Source of the DNA: a virus
Direction: 5' to 3' (one strand)
Length of the DNA stretch: 64,000 bases
Virus record (IMG/VR): IMGVR_UViG_3300022837_000010
Span: 3,030-67,029 of that record
Below are positions 15,367 through 25,861 of the stretch, piece after piece. Position 1 is the first letter of the stretch. Each line of letters begins with the position of its first letter. The position numbers and the translations under genes are program-made. The notes below the pieces were generated by a model, which saw nothing but the letters and a program-made list of their open reading frames with translations, was not told the DNA's origin and ran no database searches.

Positions 15367-15572
15367 AACTCATATTAATTATTGTATTATCAAGTACTTT
15401 ATACGAGTTAAAAGAAGTTGAAGTACCTAGTGGACAAACATGTGGTGATGTGTACAATAATGTCGTTGTGTATAAAGAAAATCCCCTTGCGTATCCAGGA
15501 AAAGGTCAAGTTTGGGTTAATGGATATTATAAAGGGAAAATTGTAGGAGGATATATTTGTGAAGCTATCTAA
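15363..15572 (+). CDS. Small secreted/membrane hypothetical protein
   Basis: MKLILIIVLSS signal-like start; ATGA overlap. Confidence 0.55.
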   Translation: MKLILIIVLSSTLYELKEVEVPSGQTCGDVYNNVVVYKENPLAYPGKGQVWVNGYYKGKIVGGYICEAI

Positions 15573-16050
15573 AAACTTTTATCTATCCGAGATGACTAAA
15601 TCGCAGACCGCGGAGCGTATGGGTTTAGATAATAATCCGTCTCAATATGAAACTGAAAATTTACGCCTGTTGTGTGAGAGAGTACTACAACCTATACGGG
15701 ACCATTTTGATTCTGTGGTTTCTATTTCTAGTGGATTTCGAAATGAAATTTTGAGCGAAAAAATCGGTAGTAGTAGAAAATCCCAGCACTGTTTAGGCCA
15801 GGCGGCCGATTTTGAAATATTTGGTATAGAAAATAATAAGGTCAGTGATTGGATCAAAGAGAACCTTATGTTTGACCAATTAATTTTAGAATACTATATT
15901 CCAGGACAACCTAACTCTGGGTGGGTCCATGTTTCTTACAATTCTGACATAAATATGAACAGAAAAGAATATTTAATGGCTGTTAAAAAAGACGGTAAAA
16001 CAGAATATAAACAAATACTTGGTTTATCTACAGATCGTTACGCAAAATAA
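15559..16050 (+). CDS. Endolysin, peptidase M15 family
   Basis: ISSGFR...SQHCLGQAADF...WVHVSY zinc-peptidase motifs. Confidence 0.9.
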   Translation: MKLSKNFYLSEMTKSQTAERMGLDNNPSQYETENLRLLCERVLQPIRDHFDSVVSISSGFRNEILSEKIGSSRKSQHCLGQAADFEIFGIENNKVSDWIKENLMFDQLILEYYIPGQPNSGWVHVSYNSDINMNRKEYLMAVKKDGKTEYKQILGLSTDRYAK

Positions 16051-16058
16051 TTTTTAGT

Positions 16059-16154
16059 GTGGTAGTTGTTGGTTTAACGGTATATGAAAGACCAAGGACG
16101 AAGAAAACCGAACCAACTCTGGCATTGCTGCCAAGAACCTACCACTGTCCTTGG
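16059..16154 (-). ncRNA. Candidate pseudoknotted structured RNA
   Basis: Five complementary pairings including an 8-bp pseudoknot; GCAA tetraloop on the minus strand; intergenic between convergent genes. Confidence 0.55.
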
Positions 16155-16184
16155 AGTACTTTTCTTGTCCTATTCTGTAATATT

Positions 16185-16415
16185 TTAATGCCATGTAATG
16201 GGTTCCTCGTCTCCATCTAAAATTTTATTAGTCTTAACCATAAATTTTATTTCACCACTTTTTAATGAATCTTCACCAAAATCTTCAACTTTATCTCTTA
16301 TGGCTTGGTTGATTTCTAATATATCATGAAAAGATAATTGTACTATAAATTGTTTTTTCATTTGAGTAACCCATTTATTAGATTTTTTAGTTTTTTTAGT
16401 TTTTTTAGTTTTCAT
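16185..16415 (-). CDS. Hypothetical protein
   Basis: ATG overlaps helicase stop; KTKKTKKTKK from a 9-bp tandem repeat. Confidence 0.6.
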   Translation of the reverse strand: MKTKKTKKTKKSNKWVTQMKKQFIVQLSFHDILEINQAIRDKVEDFGEDSLKSGEIKFMVKTNKILDGDEEPITWH

Positions 16416-17848
16416 TAGATCCATTCTCTCCAATCTTCATCCATAATAGTATTAGCAATATCCATTTTTTTCCGTAGAGCTTTTACTATCTTTTCATCCA
16501 CAGTTTTTGGTGCTATAAGGTCAATATATGTTACTGATTTATTCTGACCTATTCTATGTGCTCTATCTTCTGATTGTAATCTTTTTTCTAAATCATAACC
16601 GTTAGAGTAATAAACCACAGTATTAGCTGCAGTTAACGTAATACCATAACCCGCGGTTTGTGGATTACCTATAAAGAACCTAACTTTAGAATCTGGATCT
16701 TGAAACTTTGTAATAGCTTCTTGTCTGTCCGCAGATTTAACAGCACCATAGTATTGAACTACAGAATCATCACCATATTCTTCTTTGATAGTTTTAACTA
16801 AATCTTCAATATCATAGATATAATTAGCCCATATAATAACCTTACCTTCTACCTCTTCAAGTAAAGCTAATAGTTCTTTCATTCTATTATTTTTAATTTT
16901 AGTTGTAGTGCCATCATCATTCTTTAAATGACCACAAGTAATTTGATGTAATCTCATCATTTGTGTAAGAACATGAGGTGCGGTAGCCATTTTGCCTTTT
17001 AGTAGAGCGAGGGCCGCGGATTTCATGGTAGCGTAGGCCTTACTTTGTTCTTCAGTAAGTTCTATTTCACGTCTAGTATATATTTTAGGAGGTAAATCTA
17101 AACAATCTTCTTTCAACACCCTATACGAAAACTTTTTTATAGTATCTGAAAGTTCATCTAATCTTTGATAACTAGAAATAAGTTGTACTCTACGTCCACC
17201 AAAATTTCTTTCAACCATATGAGCATATCTATTTCTAAACGCATAAAAAGAACTGAAACCTAATAAAAATTCATTTAAAAAATTACATTGAGTATATAAG
17301 TCAAGAGGACTTTTTGTCACAGGTGAACCTGTAAGTATTCTTCTATATTCAGCCTGCTTTCCAAGTTGTAAGATAGATTTAGTACGTTTAGCAGTAGGAT
17401 TTTTAATAGTAGTAGACTCATCTACAGCAAGCATTGTTTTATGACAACTCATAAATTTACCTGCAAAATCTAAACCTTTTTTAGTACTTAACGCTTCAAC
17501 ATTCATAATTAGGATGTGTAGATCATGTCCTGTTTCAAATAATGATTGATACTCTTTATCCTTTGTTTTTGAAGTTGAAGCAGTCCATAGTACCATTGTA
17601 GGGTGTATGTGACTAACTAAATGTGTAGGTATTTCTTGAGAAAACCAATTGTTATATACACCCTTTGGTGCTATAATAAGTGCGCCATTAATTCTGCCTT
17701 TATCATAAAGCATAGCCATATTATCAACTAATACTTTAGATTTTCCAGTTCCCATTTCCATGAAATAACCATACTCTGTTTTATCCCACGATTTTTCTAA
17801 CGCAGTAATTTGATGTGCGTAAGGTTTTGTTTTAAATTTATAATTCAT
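16415..17848 (-). CDS. SNF2-family (SF2) helicase
   Basis: EMGTGKS, VDES, LTGSP, GYGITLT, QSEDRAHRIGQ. Confidence 0.95.
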   Translation of the reverse strand: MNYKFKTKPYAHQITALEKSWDKTEYGYFMEMGTGKSKVLVDNMAMLYDKGRINGALIIAPKGVYNNWFSQEIPTHLVSHIHPTMVLWTASTSKTKDKEYQSLFETGHDLHILIMNVEALSTKKGLDFAGKFMSCHKTMLAVDESTTIKNPTAKRTKSILQLGKQAEYRRILTGSPVTKSPLDLYTQCNFLNEFLLGFSSFYAFRNRYAHMVERNFGGRRVQLISSYQRLDELSDTIKKFSYRVLKEDCLDLPPKIYTRREIELTEEQSKAYATMKSAALALLKGKMATAPHVLTQMMRLHQITCGHLKNDDGTTTKIKNNRMKELLALLEEVEGKVIIWANYIYDIEDLVKTIKEEYGDDSVVQYYGAVKSADRQEAITKFQDPDSKVRFFIGNPQTAGYGITLTAANTVVYYSNGYDLEKRLQSEDRAHRIGQNKSVTYIDLIAPKTVDEKIVKALRKKMDIANTIMDEDWREWI

Positions 17849-17930: not shown

Positions 17931-18332
17931 ATGAAAAATAAAATATTTGAATTATATAAACCAGATTCTTTAAGAGAATTTTTAGACTTTTATAAAAATA
18001 ATCCAGAAGAGAAATTTGTTTATGTTGCACAACAACCTCAAGCAAATATAAATATATCAAGTGCATCTGATTTTGGTTATCTAATTATTTGTTTACCTAA
18101 CACTGGACCAGAGTCTCAAGCAATTTATTCTACTTCTCCGTTTGTGAGAAAAATGAAAAAGAATTTACAAAATTTTAGACAACAAGATTATTTATTAGCT
18201 ATTGGAGATCCTATAATAATTGGTATTTGCAATATTGCTATAAGTGATGTAACCAATGGAAAGTTTAATGTATTAAAATGGGATAGAAGAGAGTATAGAT
18301 ACTACCCATTAGAATTAGACTTTTATAACTAG
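17931..18332 (+). CDS. Hypothetical protein
   Basis: 133-aa ORF, first gene of the replication operon. Confidence 0.75.
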   Translation: MKNKIFELYKPDSLREFLDFYKNNPEEKFVYVAQQPQANINISSASDFGYLIICLPNTGPESQAIYSTSPFVRKMKKNLQNFRQQDYLLAIGDPIIIGICNIAISDVTNGKFNVLKWDRREYRYYPLELDFYN

Positions 18333-18346
18333 AAAGAAGAAATAAT

Positions 18347-18727
18347 ATGAGCCATAAAGTAAAACCTGAAGATAAGTTAAAAAAAGAAAATAAGTTAAAA
18401 AAAGAAATAAGAGACCTAAAAAAAGAGGCCAAACCTTTTCTTGCTTATAAAAGATTAATCTTAACTGCTGCTAAATCAGAATATGACCCCAAAGATGTTG
18501 TAGAGGGTATAAAGTTTGCAGCAAAGCAAATTGAGAAAAAGAATTGGCTAATGGCTGATAAGGTGGGAGGAACTTCTGGCGATTTAATGGTTAGAGATGT
18601 GTGCCCAAAATGTGAAATAAATTTAGTGGGAAAAGATCTTCAACCAAGAGAGTTTACACTTCCTTGCTTAATTAAAGGCTGCTCATTTAATGAAAAACCC
18701 AATCAACTGAAGGAGAAAACAATATGA
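18347..18727 (+). CDS. Hypothetical protein with C-terminal Cys motifs
   Basis: CPKC...CLIKGC. Confidence 0.65.
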   Translation: MSHKVKPEDKLKKENKLKKEIRDLKKEAKPFLAYKRLILTAAKSEYDPKDVVEGIKFAAKQIEKKNWLMADKVGGTSGDLMVRDVCPKCEINLVGKDLQPREFTLPCLIKGCSFNEKPNQLKEKTI

Positions 18728-19287
18728 GTAATGAAATAACAAATATGATGTTAAAAGATTCTAAAGATCTTTTAGATGATGTAGAAATAAATGACATAGC
18801 ATCTGAATGTGTAAAGCTAAAACAAAAAGAAGATGAAATAGCTTCACTTGAAGAGCAGTTAAAATTAAAAAAAGCAGAGGCAGATGATATTGGTTCTAGA
18901 GTAATTCCAGAACTATTAGCTGAACAAGGTTTAAGTGAAATTAAACTTGCAGATGGATCTAAAGTTTCTGTTAAAAAAGAATTTAGAGCAACCGTCCCTA
19001 AAGATGATGTGAGGAGACAAGGTTGTTTACAATGGCTTCGTGACCAGGGTTTAGGAGATATTATTAAAAATAATGTTTTTGTAAGCTTTGGCAGTGGAGA
19101 AGACACCAAGGCGGAGCAGTTGCTCAACCTTGCAGCAGAAAATGGTTTTAATCCACAACAGGTATCTGATGTGCATTGGGCTACACTTTCTGCTCTATAT
19201 CAGGAGCGTGTTCAGTCCGGGCTGGACATGCCTTCTGAAAACTTTAGTCTTTGGATTAAAGCTAAAACTAAAATAACTCGGAAATAA
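18724..19287 (+). CDS. Conserved phage replication-module protein
   Basis: Coiled coil then LADGSKVSV...WLRDQGLGDIIKN...VHWATL; upstream of SSB-like gene. Confidence 0.7.
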   Translation: MSNEITNMMLKDSKDLLDDVEINDIASECVKLKQKEDEIASLEEQLKLKKAEADDIGSRVIPELLAEQGLSEIKLADGSKVSVKKEFRATVPKDDVRRQGCLQWLRDQGLGDIIKNNVFVSFGSGEDTKAEQLLNLAAENGFNPQQVSDVHWATLSALYQERVQSGLDMPSENFSLWIKAKTKITRK

Positions 19288-21730: not shown

Positions 21731-21949
21731 ATGAAATACGGATTAACTGAAAAACAATTAAAACTATTTAATTTTATTAAAGAGTATATCAATGAAAATA
21801 ATATACCACCCTCTTATGATGAGATGACGGCAGCATTAGGTTTAGTCTCTAAATGTGGTATAGCAACAAAAATAGTACAACTACAAGAAAGAGGATGGAT
21901 AACAAAGCTACCAGGTAAAAGTAGAAGCATACAAATAATAAAAATATGA
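21731..21949 (+). CDS. LexA N-terminal-like winged-HTH regulator (no peptidase domain)
   Basis: LTEKQLKLFNFI...PPSYDEM...LGLVSK...LQERGWI...GKSRSI. Confidence 0.85.
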   Translation: MKYGLTEKQLKLFNFIKEYINENNIPPSYDEMTAALGLVSKCGIATKIVQLQERGWITKLPGKSRSIQIIKI

Positions 21950-23454
21950 AAACAATAATATTAGGACCACCAGGAACAGGGAAGACAACAACATTATTAG
22001 ATTTAGTTGATGAATTTATACAACAAGGAATTAGACCTAAACAAATAGGTTACTTTTCTTTTACTAAAAAAGCTGCAACAGAAGCTGCAACAAGGGCCGC
22101 TGAAAAGTTTGGTTTAGATATAGATAATGATTTATCAAATTTTAGAACTCTACACTCATTAGCTTTTAGAAATTTAGGTATGACTAAAGAGAGAATGATG
22201 AAGATAGAGGACTATAAGGAATTTGGTCAGAAATGTGGCATTCCTATTAAGACGGCTAGGTACTCTATAGAAGATGGTACCTTTAATTCGGATAATGAAT
22301 ATCTTACAATAATAAATACAGCTAGAGTTAAGAGAGTTGACTTAATGGAATACTACGATTCAAGACAAAATATATTAGATATAGAGAGAAGTACTTTATT
22401 TTTATTAGCAGAAGAGTTGGAAAGATTTAAAAAAGAAAAGAACTTAAAAGATTTTACAGATCTATTAGAAGACTTTATAAAAAAAGATATACCTAGTAGT
22501 TTTGAAGTATTGTTTATAGATGAAGCACAAGATCTATCTTTATTACAATGGGAAATGGTTAGACATCTTTGGAAATATGCAAAGAAAACTTATATAGCAG
22601 GTGATGATGATCAAGCAATATTTAAATGGGCCGGAGCGGATGTAGATCACTTCATAGCGTTAAAAGAAGAAGTAAATAATATTGAAGTATTACAACAGTC
22701 CTATCGTATTCCAGGTGGACCTATTCATGAATTATCTCAAAAAATAATAAACAAAGTACAAAATAGATTTGAGAAAGAATATAAGCCTAGAGATGAAATA
22801 GGATTATTAAAAAGATATTCTGATATAACACAGGTAGATATGAGTAAAGGTAATTGGTTAGTATTATCTTCTGCAAACTATTTTCTAGATGATGCCAAAG
22901 ATTTATGTGAAATACAAGGATGGTATTATCAATATAAAGGAATTAATTCTGTACCTTTAAAACTATTACTTGCGTTAAATAATTGGGAATCATGGCGTAA
23001 AGGAGAGTTTTTAAATCATTTAGAGATTAAAAATATTTATCAGTATTTAGGGTCTAATGTAAGTGTTGGGTATCAAAAGGGTAAAACTTTGCATTCGGAC
23101 GCGAAGTATACATTAAAAGAATGTCAAGAGCAACATGGATTAACAATATCTGAAGTATGGTATAAATCATTTAATGGTTTAGATCCTATGACGGAAACTT
23201 ATATTCGTAATATGAGGGCGAATGGTGAGATGATTAATAAAAATCCTCGTATAACAATGTCAACTATACACGCAGCGAAAGGAGGAGAAGCCGACAACGT
23301 TTTACTATTACAGGACCTTACAGGTGCAGCACTAGAAACTTTTAGTTATGATCCAGATGAATTACATAGATTATTTTACACTGGCGCAACGAGAGCGAAG
23401 CGTGAATTGCATTTACTAGATCCTAAAAACTTTGATCGGGCTTATATAATTTAA
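21946..23454 (+). CDS. UvrD/Rep-family SF1 helicase
   Basis: GPPGTGKTT, IDEAQD, GDDDQAI, QSYR, STIHAAKGGEAD, YTGATRAK. Confidence 0.95.
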   Translation: MKTIILGPPGTGKTTTLLDLVDEFIQQGIRPKQIGYFSFTKKAATEAATRAAEKFGLDIDNDLSNFRTLHSLAFRNLGMTKERMMKIEDYKEFGQKCGIPIKTARYSIEDGTFNSDNEYLTIINTARVKRVDLMEYYDSRQNILDIERSTLFLLAEELERFKKEKNLKDFTDLLEDFIKKDIPSSFEVLFIDEAQDLSLLQWEMVRHLWKYAKKTYIAGDDDQAIFKWAGADVDHFIALKEEVNNIEVLQQSYRIPGGPIHELSQKIINKVQNRFEKEYKPRDEIGLLKRYSDITQVDMSKGNWLVLSSANYFLDDAKDLCEIQGWYYQYKGINSVPLKLLLALNNWESWRKGEFLNHLEIKNIYQYLGSNVSVGYQKGKTLHSDAKYTLKECQEQHGLTISEVWYKSFNGLDPMTETYIRNMRANGEMINKNPRITMSTIHAAKGGEADNVLLLQDLTGAALETFSYDPDELHRLFYTGATRAKRELHLLDPKNFDRAYII

Positions 23455-23542
23455 CTATGGAAGATGAACCAGATTATATTGAAGATTTAGTTTTGATAAC
23501 TTTTTTTTCAATTTTAGCATACATAATAACAAAAGGATTAAT

Positions 23543-23740
23543 ATGAACTGTTGGCACTGTAACACTAAATTAATATGGGGTGGTGACCATGATGTAGAAG
23601 AAGAAAATGATACTTATAGTATAGTGACAAATTTATCTTGTCCAGAGTGTCATAGTTTTGTTGAAGTATATTACCCAAGTGAAGCAACATTAAAAGACTA
23701 TAAACAACATGAAAAGAAAAGGAAAAAAAATGAAAAGTGA
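23543..23740 (+). CDS. Small zinc-ribbon protein
   Basis: CWHC...CPEC. Confidence 0.75.
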   Translation: MNCWHCNTKLIWGGDHDVEEENDTYSIVTNLSCPECHSFVEVYYPSEATLKDYKQHEKKRKKNEK

Positions 23741-24002
23741 ATATAAAAAGTTAAAAGAAAAAGGAATTGTTAATGATAAAGTTAAACTTGGGGATTTAGA
23801 TCCTTTGTTAAAACAAGTAGGTGGAAATCATTATATGTATTTTGCTATACAACCTGCAGAATTTATTAATGAAAATAAGTTGCTTTTTGCAGAAGGCAAC
23901 GCTATAAAGTATATATGTAGGCACTCCGAGAAGGGTGGCATACAAGATATAGATAAAGCAATACATTATCTAGAAATGGTGAAAGAGAGAGATTACACAT
24001 GA
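23709..24002 (+). CDS. DUF3310-like protein
   Basis: QVGGNHY...IQP.EFI...EGNAIKYICR...KGGIQDIDKAIHYLE. Confidence 0.85.
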   Translation: MKRKGKKMKSEYKKLKEKGIVNDKVKLGDLDPLLKQVGGNHYMYFAIQPAEFINENKLLFAEGNAIKYICRHSEKGGIQDIDKAIHYLEMVKERDYT

Positions 24003-25861
24003 GAAATACACAAATGCCGTTATTTGCACCCGAGACGGAATGGGTTGCACCTGATGAACTAAAAGATTTATCGGGATACAAAGAAGTTGCTATAGATTTA
24101 GAAACCTGTGATCCTCATTTAATGACCCTTGGGTCAGGTAATGTTACTGGAAAAGGACACATTGCTGGCGTTGCGGTGGCCGTAGATGGGTGGAAAGGTT
24201 ATTATCCGATTGGACACGAGGGTGGTGGTAATATGGATAGAAAACTCGTATTACAATGGGTTCAGGATTTAGTTAATCAAGAGAAAACTACCTTTATATT
24301 TCACAATGCAATGTATGATGTTTGTTGGCTTCGATCTGCAGGTATTAAAATTAGAGGACACATTGTTGACACAATGATTGCGGCTTCTTTAATTGATGAG
24401 AATAGAATGTCTTATACACTAAATACTTTAGCTAAATTTTATGTTGGTATTGGTAAAGATGAAAAAGTATTACAAGAAGCAGCTAAAAGTTATTCAGTAA
24501 ACGCTAAAGCAGAAATGTATAAACTTCCTGCAATGTATGTAGGTGAATATGCTGAACGAGACGCTGAAGCAACTTTAAAGTTATGGCAACGATTGAATGT
24601 AGAACTTCATAACCAAGAATTGATGGACGTTTTTAATTTAGAAACTAAATTATTTCCTTGTCTAGTTGATATGAGATTCAAAGGTGTAAGAGTTGATCTT
24701 GAACATGCGGCTAATTTAAAGAAAAATTTAATAGTAAGAGAGAACAAAATACTTAATAAAATCAAGGAGTTAACAGGTATTAATGTAGAAATACACGCAG
24801 CAAGAAGTATCGCTACAGCTTTTGATAAATTAAAACTTCCTTATGATAGAACTGAAAAAAGTAATGAACCTAGTTTTACTAAAAACTTTTTACAGAATCA
24901 TCCCCATGAATTAGCAAGATCTATTGCAGATGCTAGAGAGATTAATAAAGCACATACAACTTTTATTGATTCGATTACCAAGCATGCTCATAATGGTAGA
25001 ATTCATGCAGACATAAATCAAATAAGATCAGATCAAGGTGGAACAGTTACAGGTAGATTCTCTATGAGTAATCCTAACCTACAACAGATTCCGGCAAGAC
25101 ATCCGGAACTTGGACCAATGATTAGATCTATTTTTATTCCGGAAGAAAAAACTAGTTGGGGATCATTTGACTACTCACAACAAGAACCTAGAATTTTAGT
25201 ACACTATGCAAAACTTCAAAACTTGGAAGGTGTTGATGAAATTGTTAATGCATACAATGAAGGTGATGCGGATTTCCACCAGGTAGTAGCGGATATGGCA
25301 GGTATTGAACGTAAGCAAGCCAAAACTATTAACCTTGGATTGATGTATGGAATGGGAAAAAATAAATTAATGTCGGAACTGGGTTTACAAAAAGAATCAG
25401 CTGAAAAATTGATTAGACAATATCACACTAAAGCTCCTTTTGTTAAGAAGCTTATGAATAATGTAACTAGAAAAGCAAATGATTATGGTAAAATTAGAAC
25501 TCTAGGTGGACGTGCATGTCATTTTGACCTATGGCAACCTACACAGTTTGGTATTTTTAAACCATTACCTCTTGAGATGGCTAGAAAAGAATATGATGAA
25601 CCTTTAAAACGTGCATTTACTTACAAAGCTTTGAACAAATTAATTCAAGGTAGTGCAGCAGATATGACAAAGAAATCTATGGTAGCTTTATATGAAGCAG
25701 GAATCATACCTCATATTCAAATTCATGATGAAGTAGATATATCTGTAGAATCTGATGCTCAAGCAGAAAAAATTATTGAGATTATGGAATCTGCTGTAGA
25801 ATTGAAAGTTCCTAACAAAGTTGACTATGAATCTGGCGCTAATTGGGGCGAAATAAAATAA
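23999..25861 (+). CDS. polA: DNA polymerase family A with 3'-5' exonuclease
   Basis: DLET, FHNAMYD, TGRFS..PNLQQIP, DYSQQE, RKQAKTINLGLMYG, IQGSAAD, IHDE. Confidence 0.97.
   Translation: MRNTQMPLFAPETEWVAPDELKDLSGYKEVAIDLETCDPHLMTLGSGNVTGKGHIAGVAVAVDGWKGYYPIGHEGGGNMDRKLVLQWVQDLVNQEKTTFIFHNAMYDVCWLRSAGIKIRGHIVDTMIAASLIDENRMSYTLNTLAKFYVGIGKDEKVLQEAAKSYSVNAKAEMYKLPAMYVGEYAERDAEATLKLWQRLNVELHNQELMDVFNLETKLFPCLVDMRFKGVRVDLEHAANLKKNLIVRENKILNKIKELTGINVEIHAARSIATAFDKLKLPYDRTEKSNEPSFTKNFLQNHPHELARSIADAREINKAHTTFIDSITKHAHNGRIHADINQIRSDQGGTVTGRFSMSNPNLQQIPARHPELGPMIRSIFIPEEKTSWGSFDYSQQEPRILVHYAKLQNLEGVDEIVNAYNEGDADFHQVVADMAGIERKQAKTINLGLMYGMGKNKLMSELGLQKESAEKLIRQYHTKAPFVKKLMNNVTRKANDYGKIRTLGGRACHFDLWQPTQFGIFKPLPLEMARKEYDEPLKRAFTYKALNKLIQGSAADMTKKSMVALYEAGIIPHIQIHDEVDISVESDAQAEKIIEIMESAVELKVPNKVDYESGANWGEIK

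What the first reader, a model, noticed from the sequence alone, without database searches (positions are those of the whole stretch)
16059..16154. Pseudoknotted three-way-junction RNA between endolysin and a convergent operon
Seen: GTGGTAG(16059)/CTACCAC(16139), GTTGGTT(16068)/AACCAAC(16111), CGGT(16078)/ACCG(16107), hairpin TGGCA(16120)/TGCCA(16129), and an 8-bp loop-to-flank pseudoknot CCAAGGAC(16092)/GTCCTTGG(16147). On the minus strand the hairpin loop is a GCAA (GNRA) tetraloop. Five exact helices in 96 nt are unlikely by chance, and this is not a simple terminator. Inference: an undescribed phage ncRNA (ribozyme-like, nuclease-blocking 3' element, or pRNA-like multimerising RNA). I do not recognise a known family.
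Basis: partly seen in the sequence, partly recalled or inferred. Interest (0 to 1): 0.75.

Follow-up and report, generated by a model that had tools for sequence, protein, structure and literature searches.

The report
New pseudoknotted RNA in ocean phages
The flagged stretch is one copy of a previously uncatalogued, strongly conserved, doubly pseudoknotted RNA of about 135 bases that many uncultivated marine phages carry next to their helicase genes; its job is unknown, so it is a candidate new class of functional RNA.

Summary
Motif scans of viral and metagenome contigs plus two covariance models gave over 120 distinct copies. The RNA is read from the window's MINUS strand: 336 G-U cells against 39 A-C cells, and flanking genes run the same way.

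The family fold has 36 pairs in 7 helices. These are 96.0% paired against 81.3% in shuffles and at most 55.8% when partners are slid; 26 pairs show changes on both sides.

Its two strands instead take part in two conserved pseudoknots, Px and PKA, so the element runs to about 16058-16193.

No match in Rfam 15. ARAGORN found no tRNA or tmRNA at the element. Nothing in deposited phage genomes or among 80 listed cellular-genome hits.

No peptide is conserved, yet a frame stays open through the RNA wherever a gene follows.

Function is unknown. My best guess, at low confidence, is a cis-acting 3'-end processing or protection module of early-operon mRNA.

The parts
16058..16193 (-). Whole RNA domain (about 136 nt): the extent of the covariance-model match. 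It fills the gap between two convergent stop codons.
   Evidence: Model R1 gives 118.7 bits, E 2.8e-26. It is the only match in the window; the next best is 14.3 bits. R2 gives 112.9 bits.
16172..16178 (-). 5' box ACAGAAU, moderately conserved, just 5' of pseudoknot PKA.
   Evidence: Alignments.
16160..16171 (-). PKA 5' strand (AGGAC AAGAAAA). It pairs with 16095-16106 inside the P2 loop.
   Evidence: Window duplex -11.4 kcal/mol. Family cognate -15.55 against permuted -11.28, sd 0.30, 0 of 2000 permutations as low. All 9 modelled pairs change on both sides.
16147..16154 (-). Px 5' strand (CCAAGGAC; the family core is the last 5-6 nt). It pairs with 16131-16138 and forms an H-type pseudoknot with P1.
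   Evidence: 5 of 6 pairs covary; 96% paired, G-C invariant in 100 of 100, G-U in 94 of 100. Window duplex -9.3 kcal/mol.
16146..16146 (-). L1: a single A between the Px 5' strand and P1.
   Evidence: One nucleotide in 92 of 100 members, and A in 70.
16139..16145 (-). P1 5' strand (GUGGUAG). It pairs with 16059-16065.
   Evidence: Seven pairs, 99.4% paired, 4 pairs with changes on both sides.
16131..16138 (-). Px 3' strand (GUUCUUGG), directly after the P1 5' strand.
16120..16133 (-). P3 hairpin. In this window it has a GCAA loop. The family supports 3 pairs, with variable loops and insertions.
   Evidence: Three of 3 pairs covary, 99.7% paired. Loop variety is visible.
16107..16117 (-). P2 5' strand (GUUGGUU) plus P2b (CGGU).
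   Evidence: P2 is 100% paired and P2b 98.5%. P2 covaries when the scan does not fix it.
16095..16106 (-). PKA 3' strand in the P2 loop (pyrimidine-rich, with one bulged C).
16068..16081 (-). P2b 3' strand (ACCG), the UUA bulge (16075-16077) and the P2 3' strand (AACCAAC).
   Evidence: The bulge is UUA in 99 of 100 members, but it lay inside the scan patterns.
16059..16065 (-). P1 3' strand (CUACCAC). It is preceded by the 2-nt junction AA (16066-16067) and followed by an unpaired A (16058).
   Evidence: The junction is AA in 87 of 100 and the next nucleotide is A in 82 of 100.
16054..16194 (-). A 46-codon open frame running through the whole RNA (a 'pass-through' frame). It is not a conserved peptide.
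   Evidence: No Pfam or PHROG match. Across the family the open frame crosses the conserved blocks in 18 phase combinations.
16185..16433 (-). Upstream 82-aa ORF of unknown function. Its stop codon lies at the 5' edge of the RNA.
   Evidence: No Pfam or PHROG family.
16415..17848 (-). SNF2-family helicase, the first gene of this minus-strand gene string.
   Evidence: Pfam SNF2-rel_dom 1.8e-24 and Helicase_C 7.4e-14. PHROG 62 DNA helicase, 3.1e-119.
15559..16050 (+). Convergent M15 peptidase (endolysin). Its stop codon is 8 nt from the 3' end of the RNA.
   Evidence: Pfam Peptidase_M15_3, 6.4e-17.

Best explanation
WHAT IT IS (shown; about 0.95).
The window carries one copy of a conserved RNA domain of about 135 nt, found in uncultivated marine phages related to pelagiphages. 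It is read from the minus strand as part of the SNF2-helicase operon transcript.

The fold is a three-way junction (P1, P3, P2/P2b) locked by two pseudoknots:
- Px: the 5-6 nt just 5' of P1 pair with the nucleotides just 3' of the P1 5' strand. The 7-bp P1 and Px therefore form a classical H-type pseudoknot, a quasi-continuous helix of 12-13 bp with a 1-nt loop. Px holds an invariant G-C next to a nearly invariant G-U.
- PKA: a purine-rich 5' tail pairs with the pyrimidine-rich 5' half of the P2 loop.

The RNA behaves as a self-contained cassette. It starts about 10-16 nt (or 25-31 nt) after the stop codon of the preceding gene and ends 8-27 nt before the next start codon, or at the operon end as here. 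It is present in only some relatives and sits in several genomic places.

HOW IT WORKS (inferred; about 0.35).
It acts in cis on the operon mRNA as a 3'-end-forming and protecting module for the preceding cistron. The Px/P1 stack, followed by an unpaired A and an A/U-rich single strand, looks like the pseudoknotted acceptor arm of plant-virus tRNA-like structures. It could direct host tRNA-end enzymes or endonucleases to cut beside it, leaving the upstream (mostly helicase) message capped by a compact, exonuclease-resistant knot.

Where a gene follows, ribosomes are kept able to read through the cassette, so that downstream translation stays coupled.
For: Family and fold:
- Motif scans of viral contigs found 56, at least 118 and 60 stretches.
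- Model R1 confirmed 93 matches in 97 sources at 79-123 bits.
- Model R2 confirmed 100 of 100 chosen sources.
- On those 100 distinct sequences the 36 pairs are 96.0% paired, against 81.3% (sd 0.4) in shuffles and at most 55.8% when partners are slid. 26 pairs and 607 cells change on both sides, against 152.7 cells in shuffles.

Strand:
- 336 G-U cells against 39 A-C cells.
- Flanking ORFs are co-directional with the RNA.

Pseudoknots:
- Px.
- PKA: an alignment-free permutation test gave 0 of 2000 permutations as low, and 9 of 9 pairs covary.

Cassette behaviour:
- Only 2 of 83 sources, which comprise the 80 endolysin-relative loci, two further HTVC027P stretches and one 023Pt_psg01 stretch, hold it.
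- In HTVC027P and 023Pt_psg01 the same gene pairs abut or overlap with no RNA between them.
- There is one copy per record in 4 of 5 long viral records.
- On the RNA tree the class of the upstream gene changes at least 7 times.

Link to the preceding gene:
- The upstream stop codon lies 10-16 nt before the PKA G in 61 of 96 cases and 25-31 nt before it in 30.
- The upstream gene is a UvrD-like helicase in 82 of 121 distinct contexts and an SNF2 helicase in 20.
- 20 of 121 copies, and the window's, have no convincing downstream gene, so control of a downstream gene cannot be the general role.

Geometry of the 3' end:
- P1 is always 7 bp.
- L1 is 1 nt in 92 of 100.
- The nucleotide after P1 is A in 82 of 100, followed by a G-poor A/U tract.

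The likeness to the TYMV tRNA-like acceptor pseudoknot is recalled knowledge, not a call.
Against: - No call shows cleavage, RNA ends or stability. The mechanism is inference from anatomy and position.
- No CCA follows P1. ARAGORN sees nothing tRNA-like at the element, and no Rfam tRNA-like family matches.
- A simple hairpin is enough to block 3' exonucleases, so the elaborate PKA and three-way junction are unexplained by this model.
- Conservation is concentrated in the helices P1 and P2 rather than in junctions. That could instead point to a sequence-specific protein partner.
- If ribosomes read through the RNA, the fold is repeatedly melted in the copies that lie between genes.
- Ascertainment: every scan demanded exact matches to 16-21 specified bases in P1 or P2, so only near-consensus members were sampled and the invariance of P2 is partly built in.
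- Alignment A5 was fitted to PKA, Px and P3 by the model, which favours those helices. P1 and P2 were not in that model.
- The shuffle control ignores relatedness among the sequences.
Confidence: 0.35

Rival explanations
1. Self-cleaving ribozyme of a new class. It would cut the operon transcript between cistrons, or trim its 3' end.
For: - The fold is compact, doubly pseudoknotted and of ribozyme-like size.
- Px holds an invariant G-C next to a nearly invariant G-U (94 of 100).
- The position is intercistronic or at the operon end in phage genomes. From recalled knowledge, several small ribozyme classes were found in such places.
- No known family matches.
Against: - Few unpaired nucleotides are strongly conserved, whereas ribozyme cores usually show invariant junction or loop bases.
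- The topology (PKA, Px, P1, P3, P2) does not fit HDV-like, twister, pistol, hatchet or hammerhead folds. That comparison is from memory; the Rfam models gave no hit.
- Nothing here shows cleavage.
Confidence: 0.15
2. Cis-regulatory sensor: a riboswitch or a protein-binding operator. On binding a ligand or a phage protein it would tune ribosome passage and so the coupled translation of the downstream gene, most often a DUF3310 protein.
For: - 69 of 121 contexts have a DUF3310 gene starting 8-27 nt after the RNA.
- A frame is open through the RNA in 95 of 98 copies outside the SNF2 setting that have a downstream ORF, against 7 of 20 in the SNF2, operon-end setting. This implies that ribosomes transit the fold.
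- PKA is a purine/pyrimidine helix close to the upstream stop codon.
- Pseudoknotted aptamers of this size are common among riboswitches (recalled).
Against: - 20 of 121 copies, plus the window's own, have no convincing downstream gene.
- Downstream genes differ: DUF3310, a sigma-factor-like protein, a PD-(D/E)XK exonuclease, DUF7220 and unknowns.
- No alternative, mutually exclusive pairing is conserved. The one in the window is not shared.
- Conserved bases lie mostly inside helices.
Confidence: 0.17
3. Trans-acting accessory RNA: a decoy, antidote or mimic used against a host defence or to take over a host factor. It would be released from the operon transcript by processing.
For: - Distribution among close relatives is patchy (2 of 83 sources).
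- Genomic sites are several and the RNA has relocated.
- There is a single copy per genome.
- It is limited to viral DNA. Of 80 listed cellular-genome pattern hits, none is a member (best full-length match 30.7 bits; a 51-nt partial 35 bits).
- Helix sequences are conserved beyond what pairing needs, as expected for a protein-recognised RNA.
- The open frame through it can be read as a secondary fix that keeps neighbouring genes coupled.
Against: - There is no room for a promoter or terminator of its own: the stop codon lies 10-31 nt upstream and the next start 8-27 nt downstream.
- No partner gene was identified.
- No similarity to known antitoxin RNAs, CRISPR repeats, tRNAs or Y-like RNAs in Rfam or ARAGORN.
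Confidence: 0.18
4. Small protein gene: the minus-strand ORF 16054-16194 (46 aa), or the reader's 23-aa frame, is the functional product, and the helices are incidental.
For: - An ORF spans the element in most copies. At least one frame is open in 31 of 41, against 11.8 expected from shuffles.
- In several loci the ORF overlaps both neighbours by ATGA, like a real phage gene.
Against: - Across 77 distinct sequences the open frame passes the four conserved nucleotide blocks in 18 different phase combinations, so no peptide sequence is conserved.
- Loop lengths differ by non-multiples of three.
- Relative to the upstream gene, the only open frame is +1 in 56 cases and -1 in 15; 22 have none.
- No Pfam or PHROG match even at E up to 1.
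- The antisense strand is also often open (21 of 41).
- Paired-column covariation with G-U tolerance is not expected of coding sequence.
Confidence: 0.02
5. DNA-level element (origin, recombination or packaging site, or a bidirectional terminator between convergent operons), or simply chance complementarity.
For: - It lies in the replication-gene neighbourhood.
- In this window it sits between convergent genes.
- Single-sequence fold energies are unremarkable.
Against: - Strand-asymmetric G-U tolerance, 336 against 39.
- Two covarying pseudoknots, which a DNA cruciform cannot form.
- No terminator-like hairpin with a T run.
- Most copies lie between co-directional genes, where termination would be harmful.
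- There is one copy per genome.
- More than 120 distinct copies rule out chance.
Confidence: 0.03

Closest known systems
tRNA-like structures at the 3' ends of plant-virus RNAs (TYMV type). Named from recalled knowledge.
   Same: An H-type pseudoknot builds a coaxial arm of about 12 bp that ends in an unpaired purine at the 3' edge of a viral message. Here the arm is a 7-bp P1 plus a 5-6-bp Px with a 1-nt loop.
   Different: No CCA follows. There are no T-loop, anticodon or D-arm features (ARAGORN) and no Rfam match. The host is a DNA phage. There are an extra three-way junction and a second pseudoknot. Most copies are internal to an operon.
Exoribonuclease-resistant RNAs (xrRNA) of flaviviruses. 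Named from recalled knowledge.
   Same: A three-way junction, plus pairing of a flanking strand into the junction region, plus a loop-to-flank pseudoknot, giving a compact knot of similar size.
   Different: The arrangement is mirrored: the loop pairs with the 5' flank, not the 3' flank. The threat in bacteria comes mainly from 3'-to-5' exonucleases. There is no sequence or Rfam similarity. Resistance was not tested.
Processing and stabiliser sites of phage early mRNAs (T7 RNase III sites, lambda sib). Named from recalled knowledge.
   Same: Structured elements placed exactly between cistrons or at operon ends of phage early transcripts, acting in cis on the fate of the upstream message. The placement matches.
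   Different: Those are simple irregular hairpins. This is a 7-helix double pseudoknot with conserved helix sequences.
phi29 packaging RNA (pRNA, Rfam RF00044).
   Same: A phage-encoded RNA of similar size with a three-way junction.
   Different: No Rfam match. Its neighbours are helicase and other replication genes, not the packaging motor. The long-range pairings here are satisfied within one molecule. Multimerisation was not tested.
Candidate structured RNAs mined from IMG/VR (Fremin et al. 2023, PMC10690425). I saw the search listing and passages found by term search.
   Same: Same data source and same kind of object. That paper reports more than ten thousand candidates, including pseudoknot leaders of gp32 genes.
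   Different: Its main text has no hit for 'helicase', 'DUF3310' or 'Pelagibacter'.

Membership tests
Any Rfam 15 family (4227 models, including known riboswitches, small ribozymes, pRNA and viral tRNA-like elements) | A covariance-model score at or above the family's gathering score, or at least a low E-value | tested here: not met
   Window 15500-16700 at E up to 10: 4 weak matches, none overlapping the element. 14 family loci at gathering score: 0 matches. 13 further loci at E up to 5: 0 matches.
tRNA / tmRNA | A cloverleaf, or a tRNA-like domain with a tag reading frame, detectable by ARAGORN | tested here: not met
   0 genes in the window. In 42 family loci there is only one tRNA-His, in L182, about 6.4 kb from the element.
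Viral tRNA-like structure (TYMV type) | A pseudoknot-built acceptor arm of about 12 bp | tested here: met
   P1 has 7 pairs (99.4% paired). Px has 5 robust pairs plus 1 weaker pair. L1 is 1 nt in 92 of 100.
Viral tRNA-like structure (TYMV type) | A 3'-terminal CCA and an anticodon or T-loop mimic | tested here: not met
   After P1 comes A (82 of 100) and then an A/U-rich tract, with no CCA. ARAGORN and Rfam are negative.
Intrinsic (Rho-independent) terminator | A G+C-rich hairpin immediately followed by a T run | tested here: not met
   0 terminator-like sites in 15400-16900. Most family copies lie between co-directional genes.
Small protein-coding gene | One conserved reading frame and a conserved peptide | tested here: not met
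   18 phase combinations across the conserved blocks. No Pfam or PHROG hit.
Riboswitch or 5' leader regulator | Consistently upstream of the gene it regulates, with an expression platform | tested here: inconclusive
   98 of 121 contexts lie outside the SNF2 setting and have a downstream ORF close by. 20 of 121 are SNF2 contexts with no convincing downstream gene, and the window's copy also has none. No conserved alternative pairing was found.
phi29-type pRNA | Encoded next to the packaging or terminal region; intermolecular loop-loop pairing | tested here: not met
   The neighbours are helicase and other replication genes. Loop-loop multimerisation itself was not tested.
Self-cleaving ribozyme | Site-specific self-scission | not testable with these tools
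   Only the absence of matches to known ribozyme models can be stated.
xrRNA-like nuclease-resistant knot | A three-way junction plus flank-to-junction and loop-to-flank pseudoknots | tested here: met
   P1/P3/P2 junction with Px and PKA, in a mirrored order relative to flaviviral xrRNA as I recall it.
xrRNA-like nuclease-resistant knot | Stalling of an exoribonuclease | not testable with these tools
   No RNA-end data could be obtained.

The most novel reading that the evidence does not exclude
This is the founding member of a new class of functional RNA in some of the ocean's most abundant phages. It would be a 7-helix double-pseudoknot cassette that is either catalytic or ligand- or protein-sensing. 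It is kept translatable without encoding any conserved peptide, so the same 135 nt would serve both as a folded RNA machine and as a sequence-free 'pass-through' reading frame that preserves translational coupling of its neighbours.
Probability: 0.3. Interest if true: 0.85.

Novelty: new variant of a known kind. Interest (0 to 1): 0.7.

Why it matters
Structured RNA families with this much covariation (26 pairs changing on both sides, two pseudoknots, more than 120 distinct copies) and no known relative are rare. In the past, families like this have repeatedly turned out to be riboswitches or ribozymes.

This family sits in the replication and early modules of uncultivated relatives of pelagiphages, which infect the most abundant marine bacteria. 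It could therefore bear on how these viruses time or protect early gene expression.

It also shows an unusual genetic arrangement. A reading frame is kept open across a folded RNA although no peptide is conserved. This matters for annotation, because gene callers will report these frames as hypothetical proteins. It also matters for understanding how RNA cassettes can be inserted between translationally coupled genes without breaking them.

The family is directly testable with standard RNA biochemistry.

Tried and rejected
Known families. Rfam was scanned three times with no match. ARAGORN was run on the window and on 42 loci and found nothing at the element. The promoter/terminator scan was unremarkable: 6 promoter-like sites against 6.8 expected, and 0 terminators.

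Cultured phages. blastn of the element and of two other members against 50,697 phage records gave nothing, or only 24-nt chance hits inside tail and SSB genes at E = 3. Searches matched only the flanking genes of HTVC027P-like phages.

Cellular genomes. About 270 chance matches are expected by my own arithmetic. Of the 80 loci listed, the model found only 4 weak hits, at most 35 bits, against 79-123 bits for true members. The unlisted hits were not examined.

Metagenome contigs. At least 119 stretches; 24 of the 80 listed are true members.

Readthrough or frameshift extension of the upstream protein: rejected. The zero frame is open in 2 of 96 cases, and the open frame is +1 in 56 and -1 in 15.

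Target-site duplication or precise-insertion analysis. My three-way alignment with 023Pt_psg01 and L039 was uninformative because the coordinates were poorly chosen. One search showed only that the endolysin/helicase junction varies in length among relatives.

Earlier notes of this scan. Three look-ups returned nothing relevant.

Literature. Searches for 'DUF3310' with 'RNA motif' gave 0 papers. 'pelagiphage' with 'noncoding RNA' gave 2 irrelevant papers. 'DUF3310' alone gave 22 papers, none on an RNA judging by the listing. Fremin et al. 2023 was read by term search only, and its supplements are closed.

Expression data. The look-up of sequencing runs listed 7 runs, 5 of them on record as RNA, each holding only 0.05-0.06 of the sampled words.

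Window-specific switch. In isolated duplex terms it gives -12.2 kcal/mol, against -11.4 plus -9.3 for PKA plus Px. It is not conserved, so I set it aside.
Full report
OBSERVATION

Taken alone, the sequence does not fold unusually well:
- + strand: MFE -25.7 kcal/mol, z = -0.38, and 68 of 200 shuffles fold as well.
- - strand: MFE -28.1 kcal/mol, z = -1.61, 11 of 200.

The case for a real structure rests entirely on related sequences.

SETTING

The window is part of a 67,029-base viral record rated complete. Its nearest deposited relatives are Pelagibacter phage HTVC027P and phage 023Pt_psg01.

The element fills the 134-nt gap between two convergent stop codons:
- an M15 peptidase, 15559-16050 on the + strand (Pfam 6.4e-17);
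- an 82-aa ORF of no known family, 16185-16433 on the - strand, which follows an SNF2 helicase at 16415-17848.

In 023Pt_psg01 the corresponding convergent genes overlap, and in HTVC027P a small + strand ORF overlaps the SNF2 helicase gene. Neither has a gap.

A FAMILY

Of 80 loci fetched through the endolysin, blastn found the element in two. In L063 it lies 2.2 kb away and in the opposite orientation relative to the endolysin.

Three motif scans of viral contigs followed:
- A 19-nt degenerate motif shared by the three copies found 56 stretches, giving 41 distinct sequences.
- A pattern fixing only P1 found 60 stretches.

Covariance model R1, built from the 41, had these results:
- one match in the window, at 118.7 bits, with the next best at 14.3 bits;
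- 54 of 58 newly fetched loci;
- 93 matches in 97 sources;
- 24 of 80 listed metagenome loci.

STRAND AND NESTED HELICES

RNAalifold on the first alignment predicted P1, P3, P2 and P2b (21 pairs), with broken cells at only one P3 pair, put down to alignment, and with many G-U pairs when the window's minus strand is read.

On the final 100 distinct sequences there are 3084 Watson-Crick cells, 336 G-U cells and 39 A-C cells. That is 96.0% paired on the minus-strand reading and 87.7% on the other strand. Flanking ORFs run in the same direction as the RNA.

Where the scan pattern left a helix free, it covaried:
- In P1, one pair is UA in 72 sequences, CG in 23 and UG in 5. Another is AU in 89 and GC in 11.
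- In P2, G-U intermediates are common, and two fully compensated variants occur, in L225 and L239.

PSEUDOKNOTS

The nucleotides just 5' of P1 pair with those just 3' of the P1 5' strand. I call this helix Px.
- On alignment A3, which was not fitted to Px, 5 of 6 pairs change on both sides and 91% of cells pair.
- On A5 it is 96% paired, with an invariant G-C and a G-U in 94 of 100.

Px and P1 form an H-type pseudoknot. Its connecting loop is a single nucleotide in 92 of 100 members.

A second long-range helix, PKA, joins a purine-rich 5' tail to the 5' half of the P2 loop.
- An alignment-free test on 77 distinct sequences gave cognate duplexes of -15.55 kcal/mol against -11.28 (sd 0.30) for permuted partners, with 0 of 2000 permutations as low.
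- After realignment with model R2, all 9 PKA pairs change on both sides.

The whole model has 36 pairs in 7 helices. It is 96.0% paired, against 81.3% in shuffles and 35-56% when partners are slid by 1-3 columns. 26 pairs and 607 cells change on both sides, against 152.7 cells expected.

In the window its two arms are the Px 5' strand and part of the PKA 3' strand. It appears because the word AGGAC occurs in both the tail and the linker.

NOT A PEPTIDE, YET KEPT OPEN

A minus-strand ORF of 46 codons spans the element, and similar ORFs exist in most copies.

However, in 77 distinct sequences the open frame crosses four conserved nucleotide blocks in 18 phase combinations. No peptide can therefore be conserved, and there is no Pfam or PHROG match.

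Openness itself looks selected:
- 31 of 41 sequences have an open frame, against 11.8 expected from shuffles, though the antisense strand also has 21 of 41.
- The split by context is stronger. The frame is open in 95 of 98 copies outside the SNF2 setting that have a downstream ORF. It is open in 7 of 20 copies in the SNF2, operon-end setting.

These counts are not phylogenetically independent. In several loci the frame overlaps both neighbours by ATGA.

I read this as selection for ribosome passage, which keeps the downstream gene coupled, and not for a product. Readthrough or frameshift extension of the upstream protein is not supported.

CONTEXT AND MOBILITY

Among 121 distinct contexts the upstream gene is:
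- a UvrD-like helicase in 82;
- an SNF2 helicase in 20;
- something else in 19.

The downstream gene is a DUF3310 protein in 69.

The upstream stop codon lies 10-16 nt before PKA in 61 of 96 cases and 25-31 nt before it in 30. The latter are subfamilies with an extra 5' hairpin.

Evidence for patchiness and relocation:
- Only 2 of 83 sources hold the RNA. These comprise the 80 endolysin-relative loci, two further HTVC027P stretches and one 023Pt_psg01 stretch.
- In HTVC027P the UvrD-like helicase and DUF3310 genes overlap with nothing between them.
- The window's own UvrD-DUF3310 region (21946-24002) holds a 65-aa zinc-ribbon-like ORF instead.
- There is one copy per record in 4 of 5 long viral records.
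- On a tree of the RNA the class of the upstream gene changes at least 7 times, against a mean of 35 for shuffled labels. The alignment is short, so the tree is weak.

The RNA thus behaves as a compact accessory cassette that has been placed at several sites. It mostly sits directly behind a helicase gene.

COMPARISON WITH WHAT IS KNOWN

Rfam 15 gave nothing over the element, and ARAGORN found no tRNA or tmRNA at it. Deposited phage genomes gave nothing. The 80 listed cellular-genome hits gave no member.

Literature searches found no description. A 2023 survey of IMG/VR reports more than ten thousand unnamed candidates.

MECHANISM

Shown: the fold, the strand, the family, the placement and the patchiness.

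Inferred: the function.

Three points argue for a role tied to the upstream message rather than to a downstream gene:
- the element always abuts the end of a preceding cistron;
- it is sometimes the last feature of an operon;
- it ends in a 12-13-bp pseudoknotted stack followed by an unpaired A and an A/U-rich strand.

I therefore favour, at about 0.35, a cis-acting 3'-end processing and protection module with a tRNA-like acceptor-arm mimic. The rivals remain open: a new ribozyme (0.15), a sensor tuning coupled translation (0.17) and a processed trans-acting accessory RNA (0.18).

LIMITS

- All scans required exact words in P1 or P2, so diversity is under-sampled and the invariance of P2 is partly built in.
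- A5 was fitted to PKA, Px and P3.
- The shuffle controls ignore phylogeny.

Noticed in passing
family loci, e.g. L107:1973-2118, L179:1154-1289, L145:2435-2574: Several subfamilies carry an extra small hairpin (P0) 5' of the ACAGAAU-type box. Its arms covary (ATAC/GTAT, ATGC/GCAT, TTACAC/GTGTAA). In these subfamilies the upstream stop codon lies 25-31 nt before PKA rather than 10-16 nt.
   Followed up: partly
L121:2212-2373 and L184:7555-7705: In these two members the P3 hairpin is expanded by an insertion of about 25-30 nt. P3 therefore tolerates large insertions, as peripheral arms of functional RNAs often do.
   Followed up: no
window 16051-16414 compared with L004-L083: The junction between the endolysin and the convergent SNF2-helicase operon is a length-variable hot spot among relatives. 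It ranges from near-overlap to more than 1.5 kb. L005 has a gap of the same size as the window's but with unrelated sequence and no RNA.
   Followed up: partly
window 21946-25861: Replication string on the + strand: UvrD-like helicase (502 aa), an 88-nt gap, a 65-aa ORF with two CxxC pairs (zinc-ribbon-like), a DUF3310-like ORF (97 aa), then DNA polymerase A. This is the site where most family members carry the RNA, but the window has none there.
   Followed up: partly
window 16185-16433 (-): The 82-aa ORF upstream of the RNA begins with a lysine/threonine-rich run encoded by a short tandem DNA repeat. It has no Pfam or PHROG family.
   Followed up: no
window 17931-19287 (+): Divergent from the helicase operon are ORFs matching Pam3 gp32-like (PF23992) and Pam3 gp33-like (DUF7307) families.
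   Followed up: no
L084, L091, L098, L099, L101, L104, L109 (element +/- 30 nt): In these loci the open frame through the RNA overlaps the upstream stop, and in most of them also the downstream start, by the 4-nt word ATGA, and the downstream gene has no Shine-Dalgarno-like purine run. The arrangement looks like obligatory termination-reinitiation through the RNA.
   Followed up: partly
L086, L117, L131 (30-60 nt 3' of the element): In the operon-end setting a shared word (AAAAUGUAGGAC) and a G+C-rich hairpin followed by a U run lie 30-55 nt downstream of the RNA. This may be the real terminator of that operon.
   Followed up: no
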